From: Eledone cirrhosa
Lineage: Eukaryota
Direction of reading: 5' to 3'
Assembly: GCA_964016885.1 (NCBI GenBank)
Contig: OZ024740.1
Location: 2,480,001-2,544,000 of the forward strand
DNA: 64,000 nt
Each line of letters begins with the position of its first letter. The stretch's first letter is position 1. A program made the position numbers and the translations under genes. The notes beneath the pieces were generated by a model. The model did not search any database, was not told the origin of the DNA, and was given only the letters and a program-made list of their open reading frames with translations. Positions 4,612 through 62,212 of the stretch are shown in pieces.

Positions 4612-5168
4612 TATCAACTAGAAATTGATTGACATATATATATATTTAAAATAAACATATGAAACAATCATAGGGGATAATTTGTAAAGTGTGTAATCGC
4701 ACAGAGCTTGGTAGGTAACTAATTAAAGTTTAACTAGAGCTTCAAATATTACCTTTTAAAACATGATTAATCCTCCTTGTATATATTTAATTAAAGAAAT
4801 ATATTTCACCATTAATCCGTAAAGTCACAGTATTAAAACACGAATCTTCAGCAAGGGGGAAGATTTAACTATCTGTGTTTACACATCAAATGTAAATCTG
4901 CGAGTGACCAATCGCACGTGTTGCAATTCTAAAACTACTAACAACATGCTAGCGTCATCCCAGTGGCGTGAATAGGTGAAATATATTTCTTTAATACAAG
5001 GAAGATTAATCATTTTTTAAAAGGTAATATTTGTAGCTCTAGTTAAACTTTAATTAGTTACCTACCAAGCTCTGTGCGATTACACACTTTACAAATTATC
5101 CCCTGTGATTGTTTCATATGTTTATTTTAAATATATATATATATGTCAATCAATTTCTAGTTGATATA
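4612..5168. mobile_element. Fold-back element (~200-bp inverted arms) with HHR, in (TA)n
   Basis: 4612-4810 is the reverse complement of 4975-5168; the HHR at 4775-4856 (-) spans the left arm and spacer. Confidence 0.8.
4775..4856 (-). ncRNA. Type I hammerhead ribozyme motif
   Basis: Stem I CCUUG/CAAGG, core CUGAAGA...GAAA, stem III AUAUAUUU/AAAUAUAU, AUA cleavage triplet. Stem II is irregular. Confidence 0.6.
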
Positions 5169-5284
5169 AAATGCTCGGATCTGTTCATTGGAATCTTTGA
5201 GCATATTCTACGGTGGATATGGCGCATGTCTCGGACATGACTCCCTTAATTTAATTTAATTAAATTAATTTTGGATATATATAT

Positions 5285-7517
5285 GGTGGTGGAGAGAGCG
5301 ATGTAAGTGAGCGTACGTTGAGATGCGTGGCGTCTATAAGACTGTAGCGTGTAGAGGAATGAAGGAAAGAGCGTAAAGGATAAAAATAAAAATAAAAATA
5401 AAAACACGAGATAGAGTTACCTTGGGAGAGATTTAACTGTCCCTATATATTTCGGATTCACATCCATCAACTGGGGTTTTTTCCGGGGGTGGGGTGGGGG
5501 TGGGGGTTTGTCTGTCGGAAAGGTGCGAAACGTGTCCTCCGCTGTTTGTTGTTTTGAATATCTGAGGTATTCAGCAGAACGCGCGTGCGCGTGAAATGGG
5601 GTCGGTCAGGCAGAGGTCAGCGGCCGAAGTAGTTCTTTCAATTGTGGGAGTGGGGTGGCGCTAGCTCTCAGTCCATATTATTCTCTGCCGGTTTGGTGAA
5701 TGTTACTGTGTGTGTGTGTGTGTGTGCGTGTGTTGTTGTCTCGCTTGAGTGTGTGTGCGTGTGTTGTTGCCTTGTTCCTCTGTATTGGCAGTGTAGTATG
5801 TTCGTATGGTGGAATGCTACTGTGTGTGTGTGTGTGTATGTGTGCGTGTGTTGCTGTCTCGCTTGTGTGTGTGTGTGCGTGTGTTGCTGCATCGTTTTTT
5901 AACTTAAACCAACCCCCTCATTTCACTTCTCTCGGATCGGTTGTTTAATTGTGGCCCTAGGCGTTTGATCCAAAGTGCCGACGTTTCTTTCTCTCGCAAG
6001 AATTGTGACAATGGGCCTTCCGTCTTTGTTTCCGGAAAGACGAGGCCCTGGTGCCAGTATGCTCCTTGATCCGGATGTGCTACGGCCAGATTGTGCGACC
6101 TATATAGTATTGGTTGTACTTGTTACATTCTATCTTATACACGACGTATGTGCGTAGGCAACAGTTCGCATGGCGCATCGGGCAGTCTCTAAGGGAGCAC
6201 GCGTCAGTTGATTTCCCGGGTTTCCTGGAAAGGCATCTTCGCAGGGAGGGGCCCGAGTGGGCCAGGTGGATGTCGAGGCCCTCCCTCCGTATAGCCTTGC
6301 AGATAGCGTTGGTGGTATTCTCGCCCAGGTGTGGCATTTTAAGGAAACACTTGCCTTGGGTGCCTCTATGTCTCTTGCGTCTGGTGTCTCCTACTCTGTC
6401 TGTGAGCGAGGTAGGGTACCCGTTAGTCTCCAGCACCTCGAGGAATCGCTTGGTATGAGTGACACCACTCGCGGGATCGCTGCATCTGTTTTTGAATCGC
6501 ACGATCTCGATCGTTATATATCCTCTTTTGGCACTGTTAGGGAGGGCGGACTTGTAGTGGACGAACAGGTCCCTGCAGGCTGCCTTTCGGTAGAAGTTGC
6601 AGTGGATCCCTCCCTGTTCCGTGATGTTGATTCGGAAGTCGAGGAGGCCAAGTGACCCGTCGTCGTTGGGGTGTTCAACACTGAAGTCAATGTTCTCGTC
6701 CGTGTTGTTGAACGTCTCATAGATTCTGTTCGCCATGTCTTGGGAAGATGTGAGGATGAGGATATCGTCCACGTACCTTGAGAAAAAGGCGACGGCGTTG
6801 GGGTGGCAGGCGTTGAGTGCCTTGTGCTCGAGGCTGTCCATGTAAGAGATCGCTAGCACACCCGACAGGCTTGATTCCATGGGCAGTCCCGAGGTTTGTT
6901 GGTATGTTTGGTCAAGGAATCCGAAGTAGGTGTTGTCGACGATGATGGATATAAGTTGGTGGATGTCAGTGGTGGTGAGCCCGAAGCAGTGTAAGTCGGT
7001 GGATTGGACGCGTTCCATCAGTATATTGACGGCCGGGAGTGCCGGGACCGAGGTGTAGAGAGCGACTACATCAAGGCTGAAGGCATATCTGTTATTCTTT
7101 CTGGTGTCGGGATCCATTTGATGCAGGCGCTTCAACACCTCCTCGGAGCTGTTAACGTGTCCCGGCGAGGTGTCTAAGATGGGTTTGAGTATTCTGGCTA
7201 GGAGCCATGAAATTTTGTAGAGTGGTCCTTCCACGCTCGATACAATGGGCCTGATCTTCAGGTCGGGTCCCTGTTTGTGTGTTTTCACGAGATGGTAGAA
7301 GGCGGGTAGTCTGCTGTTCCTCGTGGTGGTAGAAGGCGGGTAGTCTGCTGTTCCGAAATGTATAGGGACAATTAAATCTCTCCCAAGGTAACTCTATCTC
7401 GTGTTTTTATTTTTATTTTTATCCTTTACGCTCTTTCCTTCATTCCTCTACACGCTACAGTCTTATACACGCCACACATCTCAACGTACACCCACTTACA
7501 TCTCTCTCTCCACCACC
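5285..7517 (-). mobile_element. 5'-truncated Penelope-like element with inverted pLTR
   Basis: RT plus GIY-YIG ORF; 5285-5456 is inverted at 7352-7517; degenerate HHR (CAGUUGA...GAAAUAUAUA) at 5441-5475 (-). Confidence 0.9.
6080..7288 (-). pseudogene. PLE reverse transcriptase / GIY-YIG endonuclease ORF (N-truncated, premature stop)
   Basis: KTHK..IRPIVS, SLDVVALYTSVP, QTSGLPMESSLS, RYVDD, LLDF, VVYKIEC...YYIGRT. Confidence 0.92.
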
Positions 7518-7680
7518 GGATCTTGTTACCCGGAGATTGACTCATCTGCATTGTCGAGGCTTCCAAATGACTTAAAGAAATTTACCTTATTATTCCACAA
7601 TGCTTCAAGCAAACTTCAATACTCTCTTATATATATATATATATATATATATCATCTTATATATATATATATATATATAT

Positions 7681-61000: not shown

Positions 61001-61678
61001 CATTCATGAATACTGATATTTACATTATAATACCTAATTCATAAAAATTGATAATTCAAATGGATGAGACATAATATATTTTTAATATATTTTAAATATA
61101 TCATCTTTCTTTCTTTTTCTCCTATACACTGGACGTGATTTATGTGTCGGCTAGTTTAACTGTATACCTTCCCTCCTTAACCTCTCACATATACGATGAT
61201 CATCTGTCCAAAAGCTGCCTACTATATTTTTTCACTTCCTCAATGTATTTCTCTCTCCCATATCTCCTTGTCTCTCTATCTCGCTTTGTTGTTTTTCTTT
61301 ACATACATCTCTTCATCTTCTTTTTTTATTTACATACATCTCTTCATCTTCTTCTTCTCATCTTCGTTTTTCTTTCTATATAACTGTCATAACAGTTTCA
61401 CTACCAAATCAACTTTTTAAATGGAAGTTGCATTATTATAAGGTATGTCGATAATTATTTATAAAACAGCTTATGTATTGTATTTTGTCTGAGGAAGGCA
61501 TACCATATTTTTAATATGATATCCCAGAAATATATATAACGAAATAAATATGGTTTTATAAATATAGTTTCCATTTGTTTAATATCGTAAACCTACTCCA
61601 GAAACTGTTGAGTGCTTTTATATCAGTTATAAAATATTTACTCGTTGTAACCCAACAATCTTAAATAAAACTTTTGCA
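58098..61678 (+). mobile_element. 5'-truncated Naiad-like PLE with ~618-bp apparently identical inverted pLTRs
   Basis: ORFs 58725-60232 (MGSSDSAQV, GLYRDD, CNCRDRSKCPL, YVGSTSTEFKLRY, CDLC, CRH) with one frameshift in a C-run; arms 58098-58715 and 60972-61589. Confidence 0.94.
61481..61546 (+). ncRNA. Type I hammerhead ribozyme (inverted copy 58141-58206 on -)
   Basis: Stem I UAUUUUGU/ACGAAAUA, CUGAGGA, stem II with CAUAUU/AAUAUG, GAAA-UAUAUA-UA. Confidence 0.8.
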
Positions 61679-62130
61679 TATATATATATATATATATATA
61701 TATATATATATATAGATAATTTAATATATCAACTAACATAAGCGCACAGATGCACGCCCATGCCAGCAAATACACAGGTTATGTCATAGTACCTAGGTGG
61801 TTCAATGCAGGAGAATGCAGAACAATAATATAAAGGACGTAAAATAAGAAAATATTTTTTTTTTTAAATTTAAAAAAAATTTTTTACTTACTTAAATTTT
61901 CACTCCAACTAATTAGTTTCTGCAATGGGAGTCATCTTACCATCCCATTCCTTCTAACTAGCCTCTGTGTCACGTGATTGATTCTTTAGAATCGGCCATT
62001 TGACTTGAAGCAGTGAGAATTTCGGTACATAGAATCCAGTCCTCGCAAGCTGTTCGATCTACCGAATTATTATTATTTTTATATGAGCCGCCAGTGTCCG
62101 CGCATTGCCTGGAGACTTAACTGAGAATAG

Positions 62131-62212
62131 ACTCCCTGATGACGCAATGAATTCTCGACAGTTGGATTACGTAACTGTCTTTATCCCATTGCAGAAACTA
62201 ATTAGTTGGAGT
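62131..62212 (+). ncRNA. Type I hammerhead, copy 1 of 3
   Basis: ACUCC-CUGAUGA-C-GCAAUG...CAUUGC-A-GAAA-CUAAUUAG-UU-GGAGU. Confidence 0.82.

What the first reader, a model, noticed from the sequence alone, without database searches (positions are those of the whole stretch)
4775..62200. Inversion breakpoints of unrelated elements cluster just 5' of the hammerhead GAAA
Seen: the inverted arm begins or turns within stem II, 3-14 nt before GAAA, in four unrelated families: 4975 (GGT-GAAA), 7352 (TCC-GAAA), 11226 and 28060 (GTC-GAAA and GAATTAGCCGTC-GAAA; also 25890) and 61930 (TCCCATTGCA-GAAA). Inferred: the RT stalls or switches template at the folded ribozyme core. These arms span the scissile bond, so the template was uncleaved or re-ligated (circular) RNA. 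That would give the HHR a structural role in forming PLE inverted ends, beyond transcript processing. Other elements here break ~15-500 nt upstream of the HHR (15747, 14997, 37465, 60972), so it is a bias and not a rule.
Basis: partly seen in the sequence, partly recalled or inferred. Interest (0 to 1): 0.75.

Follow-up and report, generated by a model that had tools for sequence, protein, structure and literature searches.

The report
Penelope stubs mark RNA start sites
The mirror-image ends of these Penelope-like jumping genes are real, but across the genome each long family breaks at its own fixed spot, likely the capped start of its RNA, and only one of six families tested has that spot inside the hammerhead ribozyme, so the ribozyme core is likely not a general stop signal.

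Summary
The five junctions exist; 25890 lies 22 nt before GAAA and its inverted arm is an 11-nt stub. In genome-wide samples only family B (11226/28060) clusters there: 174 of 215 arm ends fall 1-25 nt before GAAA. Families A (4975), C (7352) and D (61930) do not: without the window's own copies, 5 ends were seen at -3..-14 against 5.6 expected. C and two further families pile up elsewhere (C near -100, J near -62, P near -102). In B, arms starting at A(-18) carry an extra G absent from long copies (87 G : 13 A; 8 G of 100 at -22), the usual mark of a copied 5' cap. The two arms break independently (rho 0.11). Best reading: reverse transcriptase primes internally near the RNA 5' end on both target strands, runs off the capped start, and the two cDNAs join head to head. 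B's start lies inside its ribozyme, so that RNA would lack half the core, and no circular template is needed. No RNA data were available. Earlier unreviewed notes of this scan reached the same reading on other DNA of this genome.

The parts
4618..4974 (-). Family A (tandem ~560-nt hammerhead repeat), tail-less arm; core CTGAAGA at 4851, GAAA at 4807
4975..5273 (+). Family A tail-bearing arm, starts at -3 (GAAA 4978), 2-nt microhomology with partner
5285..7351 (-). Family C PLE body, 5'-truncated RT ORF 6080-7393; hammerhead-like motif with non-canonical core, GAAA at 5453; family hotspot position (A of TCAGATATTC) at 5563
7352..7629 (+). Family C inverted arm with tail, starts 0 to -3 before GAAA (7355)
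11183..11350 (.). Family B mini-palindrome in (TA)n: tail-less arm (-) ends at -3, tail arm (+) at -5
15617..17393 (+). Family B long insertion: inverted arm 15621-15745 (break -82) plus 1.6-kb body; ribozyme core 17210-17216, predicted RNA start equivalent at 17255 (-18), GAAA 17273, predicted cut after 17295, 78-nt tail
25762..25917 (-). Family B tail arm ending at -22 with an 11-nt inverted stub; core GAAA mutated to AAAA
27927..28113 (.). Family B mini-palindrome in (TA)n: tail arm (-) ends at -15/-18, tail-less arm (+) at -12
61706..63416 (+). Family D retrozyme-like tandem array (566-nt units, canonical core at 62136, 62707, 63263) with inverted arm 61706-61930 ending at -10
46473..52326 (-). 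Family J PLE (RT + GIY-YIG ORF 47940-49472, frameshifted 5' part, ATG at 51410 just after the tail) with long inverted arm; U3-A8 minimal ribozyme, GAAA 46547; family hotspot position at 46609 (-62)
14733..15224 (.). Family E near-symmetric inverted pair, break about 170 nt before GAAA (counter-example)
35449..37732 (-). Family F insertion, inverted arm breaks about 205 nt before GAAA (counter-example)
58098..61589 (+). Family G insertion, 621-nt perfect arms, break 558 nt before GAAA (counter-example)
21246..21729 (.). Family H inverted pair; hammerhead candidate with very long stem III (GAAA 21428, - strand); short arm starts at +6

Best explanation
These are head-to-head insertions of Penelope-like elements whose arm ends pile up at one family-specific spot that is likely the capped 5' end of the element's RNA, and only in family B does that spot lie inside the hammerhead. 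Shown: each family has two fixed 3' ends (with and without a tail); the two arms of one insertion share SNPs but end independently; arms are joined blunt, by 1-4 nt microhomology or with short inserts; B, J, P and C each have a sharp upstream limit; B arms starting at A(-18) carry an extra G. Inferred: the element's enzyme cuts both strands of a (TA)n target and primes a cDNA on each, internally, at the two sites lying only 65-145 nt (B) downstream of the RNA start; both cDNAs run off the capped end, copying the cap as C; end-joining repair trims and fuses them, which spreads the breaks over -1 to -25. Predicted consequence: B's promoter-made RNA begins in stem-loop II, lacks the core's 5' half and cannot self-cleave there. 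Tandem non-coding families A and D have no such start-site peak, and a few of their ends fall at the predicted cut site.
For: B: 34,004 exact pattern hits; 174 of 215 arm ends at -1..-25 and 3 of 215 between -29 and -109. Extra G: -19 is T or C in 23 of 23 long copies; of the first 100 of 2,976 arms with a purine there, 87 have G and 13 A, and about 53 G are not explained by the partner arm (hand count). At -23 the first 100 of 1,742 give 8 G, 58 A, 34 T (hand count). In 20 loci chosen for unexplained flanks none had natural upstream sequence, and five solo copies read (TA)n-G-A(-18) or (TA)n-GG-A(-18). Other hotspots: J 33 of 62 at -51..-65, P 34 of 66 at -89..-106, C 27 of 93 at -86..-112, all p<1e-13 (windows chosen after seeing the data). 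J: 829 arms with a non-native base before A(-62) vs 62 at a control position, and G after a TA flank in 7 of 40 vs 0 of 17 (p=0.07). Arms uncorrelated in 69 of 70 minis with an assignable tail (rho 0.11, p 0.36), tail arm longer in 29, shorter in 28. B's ORF starts 213 nt after GAAA. Internal priming at two sites on both strands and an uncleaved substrate: PMC11167929. Internal promoter in Penelope: PMC2377424. Untemplated 5' G read as a copied cap in L1/SVA: PMC4859970.
Against: No RNA evidence for any start site. 28 of 140 mini arms in B reach -19..-25, beyond A(-18), and ends at -22 show no G excess, so a second start or another stop is needed. My first local tallies showed no clear G signal. 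No extra G was seen at the P or C boundary in the copies read, and J's signal is not significant. The -23 control is dominated by one microhomology junction, so it is not neutral. B's zone coincides with the 3' strand of a predicted extended stem II whose apex is near -23..-26 (sequence reading; folding was ambiguous). No full-length copy starting exactly at the boundary was found; only 1 of 74 B tail ends ran on into the ORF and it has a long upstream copy. End positions carry a few nt of error; A and D lists were curated by hand.
Confidence: 0.72

Rival explanations
1. Family-B-only structural stop: on RNA extending further upstream, the long stem II refolds and ejects the cDNA end while the enzyme copies its 3' strand, so breaks cover -1 to the apex near -24.
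For: Zone matches the 3' strand of the predicted extended stem II. Ends at -19..-25 exist without a G excess. Some arms skip stem III between 7-nt direct repeats.
Against: Does not explain the extra G exactly before A(-18). D has an equally long, better predicted stem II and no enrichment (5 vs 4.0 expected at -1..-25). J, P and C hotspots lie outside the ribozyme.
Confidence: 0.14
2. One reading: reverse transcriptase stalls or switches template at the folded hammerhead core in unrelated families, on uncleaved or circular RNA.
For: Five window junctions lie within 15 nt of GAAA; B clusters there; rate ratios for A, C, D are 1.3-1.6 when the window's own copies are included.
Against: None of those ratios is significant (p 0.34-0.44); without the window copies 5 vs 5.6 expected; J and P 3 vs 4.6 expected. 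C's core is non-canonical.
Confidence: 0.04
3. A few palindromic mini-elements amplified as units, so the cluster reflects founders, not a recurring event.
For: Some junctions recur (5, 4 and four pairs of 2 among 70).
Against: 59 distinct junctions among 70 minis; the same junction occurs with the tail on either arm and in different SNP haplotypes; minis match several long subfamilies.
Confidence: 0.05
4. One cDNA folds back on itself at its 3' end and copies itself into a hairpin.
For: Many junctions are near-perfect palindromes; the 25890 stub looks like a short fold-back.
Against: Arm lengths are uncorrelated, and the tail-less arm is the longer one in 28 of 69, which a copy of the tail arm cannot give.
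Confidence: 0.04

Closest known systems
EN+ Penelope-like insertions with an inverted 5'-truncated copy and one-sided tail (Craig et al. 2021, PMC8557442; passages and section 11 read)
   Same: Inverted truncated arm, tail on one end only, partial tandems, (TA)n targeting.
   Different: Tails here are 78-122 nt in B and D (30-40 bp described); the passages read give no map of 5' breakpoints and no tie to a start site.
Hydra clade of C-terminal EN+ PLEs (PMC8557442 section 11)
   Same: Family B protein has an RW-basic motif, DKT, CxCx5C linker, C-terminal GIY-YIG-like region, ~3.1-kb unit, (TA)n insertion.
   Different: B's motif reads RWR, not RWK; its ribozyme is the U3-A8 variant; no tree was built.
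PAc (Poseidon) internal initiation in vitro (Frangieh et al. 2024, PMC11167929; parts 1-2 of 4 read)
   Same: Two internal priming sites giving the tail, both strands cut and extended, uncleaved RNA used.
   Different: Does not treat head-to-head joining or run-off at the capped start; here that is read from genomic copies.
PLE minimal hammerheads including the U3-A8 variant (Cervera and de la Pena 2014, PMC4209133; parts 1-2 of 4 read)
   Same: Type I motifs in pLTRs, U3-A8 covariation, pairs of motifs 100-700 bp apart on opposite strands, proposal of circular templates.
   Different: No start site inside the ribozyme is described in the parts read.
Metazoan non-LTR retrozymes (PMC7229834, passages; bioRxiv 10.64898/2026.07.22.740005, part 1 of 5)
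   Same: Families A and D are non-coding tandem repeats with one type I hammerhead per unit.
   Different: Units are about 560 nt (150-450 bp described); frequent head-to-head insertions; expression and circles untested here.
Untemplated 5' G in full-length L1/SVA insertions (PMC4859970, passages)
   Same: Extra G at the RNA start read as a copied cap.
   Different: Here it marks the shortest copies, not the full-length ones.

Membership tests
EN+ Penelope-like element | Single ORF with RT and C-terminal GIY-YIG | tested here: met
   J: RVT_1 and GIY-YIG above cut-off. C: RVT_1. B: 718-aa ORF with YRDD and a VIYQ..AYIG region by eye but no Pfam hit.
EN+ Penelope-like element | pLTR repeat, inverted truncated copy, one-sided tail | tested here: met
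   B unit period 3118 nt in L106; a tail on one arm only in 69 of 70 minis.
Hydra clade (family B) | RWK, DKT and CxCx5C motifs | tested here: met
   LRWR, DKTG, CNCPDRSIC in the L106 protein; RWK is RWR.
Hydra clade (family B) | Insertion into (TA)n; about 3 kb | tested here: met
Hydra clade (family B) | Placement in the clade by RT phylogeny | not tested
   No reference proteins fetched.
Type I hammerhead (B, J, A, D, P) | Core boxes with C3-G8 or U3-A8 pair, stems I-III, NUH site | tested here: met
   Descriptor scan found them. B long copies: TTGANAA in 18 of 23, CTGAGAA mismatch in 4, TTGACAT in 1. Rfam gave no hammerhead hit in the window.
Type I hammerhead (family C, 7352) | Canonical core boxes | tested here: not met
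   CAGTTGA/GTTGATGG before stem II in the copies read; not among the families listed by the descriptor scan.
Type I hammerhead (all) | Self-cleavage | not testable with these tools
   Indirect only: ends at the predicted cut in D 3 of 79 (expected 0.45, p=0.012, two insertions) and A 2 of 52 (expected 0.44, p=0.08).
Non-LTR retrozyme (A, D) | Non-coding tandem units, one type I hammerhead each | tested here: met
Non-LTR retrozyme (A, D) | Expressed as linear and circular RNA | not testable with these tools
   Needs RNA data.
Capped Pol II start site (B, -18) | Untemplated G before +1 in retro-copies | tested here: met
Capped Pol II start site (J, P, C) | Untemplated G before +1 in retro-copies | tested here: inconclusive
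   J 7 of 40 vs 0 of 17; none seen for P, C in the copies read.
Capped Pol II start site (all) | Capped RNA 5' ends mapped at the site | not testable with these tools
   Needs CAGE or 5'-RACE.

The most novel reading that the evidence does not exclude
Penelope-like reverse transcriptases routinely prime near the capped 5' end of their own mRNA on both strands of one cut, so tens of thousands of genomic stubs form a fossil map of PLE start sites and show how inverted ends arise. In family B the promoter starts inside the hammerhead, so only read-through RNA carries a whole ribozyme: the ribozyme would cut upstream read-through or tandem transcripts while the element's own mRNA is immune.
Probability: 0.5. 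Interest if true: 0.7.

Novelty: new variant of a known kind. Interest (0 to 1): 0.5.

Why it matters
How PLEs form inverted ends, and what their hammerheads do, are open questions (PMC8557442, PMC11167929). The copies give exact, testable coordinates: two priming sites, an RNA start marked by a copied cap, and independent arms. That links the in vitro internal-initiation result to the commonest genomic product and moves the ribozyme from 'roadblock' to something the promoter can split. The insertion architecture itself is known, and this scan noted the same reading before on other DNA of this genome.

Tried and rejected
Rfam scan: no hammerhead hit, only U6 and microsatellite noise. A 66-nt DNA search of the genome returned nothing; patterns worked. 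The first family A pattern matched only the window copy; a second found 2,380. RNA runs: no RNA holder listed. Laying contigs of four coded runs on 11183-11350 gave no piece spanning the stretch; one contig shows a strand-change joint at 11225 with other letters between, a weak sign that such junctions exist outside this assembly. Local cap-G tallies were unclear because of small numbers and chance over-extension. All-against-all extension was confounded by palindromic copies and replaced by long references. Families E, F, G, H, I were mapped against one window copy each; subfamily divergence makes those ends unreliable (apparent ends at 0 in G are divergence), so they were left out of all counts; K, M, N, O, Q, S, T, U were only viewed. 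A splice-acceptor origin of the B boundary was rejected: few ends at the exon starts it predicts (-16: 2, -11: 3 of 140). A downstream promoter element at +28 fits P only if +1 is -105, whereas the modal end is -102, and does not fit B or J; not claimed. Folding of B gave competing structures. Literature searches listed no paper whose title, abstract or passages read map PLE breakpoints to start sites or to the ribozyme; the library lacks most subscription papers, and no supplements were read (those of PMC8557442 and PMC11167929 may bear on this).
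Full report
Setting. The window lies in a 3.0-Gb, AT-rich animal genome (G000:C1:2480001-2544000) dense in (TA)n and Penelope-like elements (PLEs); RT and GIY-YIG domains were found at 47940-49472 and RT at 6080-7393. Rfam found no hammerhead; motifs were read by hand and with a stem-checking descriptor. Positions below count from the G of GAAA.

Observation. 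The junctions at 4975 (-3), 7352 (0 to -3), 11226 (-3/-5), 28060 (-12/-15) and 61930 (-10) are in the sequence; 25890 is at -22 with an 11-nt stub. The listed counter-examples are real. I call the families A (4975), B (11226, 28060, 25890, 15745/17383), C (7352), D (61930), and added J (46473-52326) and P (found in fetched loci).

Sampling. Exact-pattern searches gave whole counts and the first places in order: B 34,004, C 74, D 4,265, A 2,380, P 2,696, J 14,614. I held 322 loci plus the window (search loci). Coverage: B the first 100 hits, C all 74, D about the first 62, A 30, J 30, P about the first 55, plus chance copies in the flanks. The B pattern starts at GAAA and so under-samples ends downstream of it; a tail-anchored set from loci not picked for B corrects this.

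Test of the claim. B: 174 of 215 arm ends at -1..-25, only 3 between -29 and -109; in the unbiased set 28 of 52, rate ratio 9.6, p=1e-13, with 17 of 52 downstream of GAAA. A: 2 of 52 at -3..-14 (expected 1.25); C: 3 of 93 (2.4); D: 3 of 79 (2.0); J: 2 of 62 (1.9); P: 1 of 66 (2.7). Without the window's own copies A+C+D give 5 vs 5.6. One duplicate anchor in C was dropped, four P copies were reclassed as long after their upstream sequence proved shared, and the A and D lists were curated by hand. The clustering is real in one family and absent in the rest; a bias under about 2-fold is not excluded.

What the other families do. J piles up at -51..-65 (33 of 62) with an upper edge at CC-A(-62)GATG; P at -89..-106 (34 of 66), modal end -102; C at -86..-112 (27 of 93) around TC-A(-102)GAT (windows chosen after seeing the data). 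A and D are non-coding tandem repeats of about 560 nt with broadly spread ends; a few fall at the predicted cut (D 3 of 79 in two insertions, p=0.012; A 2 of 52, p=0.08).

Why the boundary is likely the RNA start. In B, position -19 is T or C in 23 of 23 long copies. Of the first 100 of 2,976 arms with a purine before A(-18), 87 have G and 13 A; 34 of the G could come from the partner arm, about 53 cannot, and several insertions carry the G on both arms (hand counts). At -23 the first 100 of 1,742 give 8 G, 58 A, 34 T; Fisher p was 4e-22 when run with 8:55, before the recount to 8:58. Twenty loci chosen for unexplained flanks showed no natural upstream sequence, and five solo copies have G or GG between the TA run and A(-18). 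An untemplated 5' G is read as a copied cap in L1 and SVA (PMC4859970 passages). The context T(T/C)A(-18)GTC resembles the animal initiator consensus (recalled, not from a call), and Drosophila Penelope has an internal promoter (PMC2377424 passages). B's ORF begins at +213, and J's ATG lies 27 nt after its tail end at +152, so both boundaries sit about 230-240 nt before the start codon. J shows 829 arms with a non-native base before -62 against 62 at a control position (a slightly stricter pattern), and G after a TA flank in 7 of 40 vs 0 of 17 (p=0.07). Against: 28 of 140 B mini arms reach -19..-25 with no G excess at -22, P and C show no extra G in the copies read, and no full-length copy starting at a boundary was found.

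How the inverted ends form. In 70 B mini-palindromes one arm carries the 78-nt tail and the other stops at +47 (69 assignable). Arm lengths are uncorrelated (rho 0.11, p 0.36), the tail arm is longer in 29, shorter in 28, equal in 12; 42 junctions are blunt or have 1-4 nt microhomology, 28 have inserts, some copied from the element; 59 junctions are distinct. This fits two separately primed cDNAs joined by end-joining repair (inferred), not a fold-back or an amplified founder. A PLE enzyme cuts and extends both strands, primes internally at two sites and uses uncleaved RNA in vitro (PMC11167929). Since the same two sites exist in the upstream pLTR near the mRNA start, priming there would give exactly such stubs (inferred).

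The ribozyme. B carries the U3-A8 core variant (18 of 23 long copies) known from PLEs (PMC4209133). An RNA starting at -18 lacks the core's 5' half at about -63, so spanning the cut site needs neither re-ligation nor a circle. For J, P and C the boundary is upstream of the motif, so those templates were simply uncleaved. A stem II-dependent stop may still account for B's -19..-25 ends.

Known versus new. Inverted truncated arms with a one-sided tail are described (PMC8557442), B fits the Hydra clade by motifs (no tree), and opposite-strand motif pairs were noted in 2014. Seven literature searches listed nothing that ties PLE breakpoints to capped start sites; coverage is incomplete and no supplements were read. 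I had noted the start-site reading before looking at this scan's notes, which hold the same reading for other DNA of this genome; they are not independent support, but they led me to rerun the cap test genome-wide after unclear local tallies and to check the Hydra clade.

Verdict. Observation partly confirmed; the general ribozyme-stall model is not supported; run-off at the RNA start after twin internal priming is the best explanation (0.72), strongest for B. New variant of a known kind, interest 0.5.

Noticed in passing
window 25033-25137 (-): Full-length U6 snRNA match (110 bits).
   Followed up: no
window 1-3160: Tandem array with a 48-nt period, related to a dispersed repeat at 7848-7954, 11560-11654, 32135-32218, 35158-35288, 38040-38157.
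   Followed up: no
L014, L130, L186 (family B): One arm lacks the stem III hairpin, deleted exactly between two 7-nt direct repeats, while the partner arm keeps it: a possible jump across the hairpin during copying.
   Followed up: partly
L171 4820-5102; L090 846: Family D arms starting at the predicted cut site (+13/+14), in L171 on both arms.
   Followed up: partly
window 21246-21729; L295: Hammerhead candidate with an ~85-nt stem III insert, conserved in a second subfamily; 3 of 9 ends lie within 25 nt of GAAA (+6, -7, -23). Too few to test.
   Followed up: partly
window 51400-51661: Family J full-length copy whose upstream pLTR jumps from the far upstream part into the end of the tail, losing the hotspot and ribozyme.
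   Followed up: no
all loci: At least 24 unrelated hammerhead families in 1.3 Mb, five with the U3-A8 core.
   Followed up: partly
L228 and L120 (family C): Two distant loci share the same junction at +1/+3 with the same 10-nt insert; a duplicated or re-mobilised palindrome.
   Followed up: no
window 7296-7355: 26-nt direct duplication of element sequence at the family C junction.
   Followed up: no
L170 (G000:C1466:128700-131600): Ten-unit, 310-nt perfect tandem array with one hammerhead per unit.
   Followed up: no
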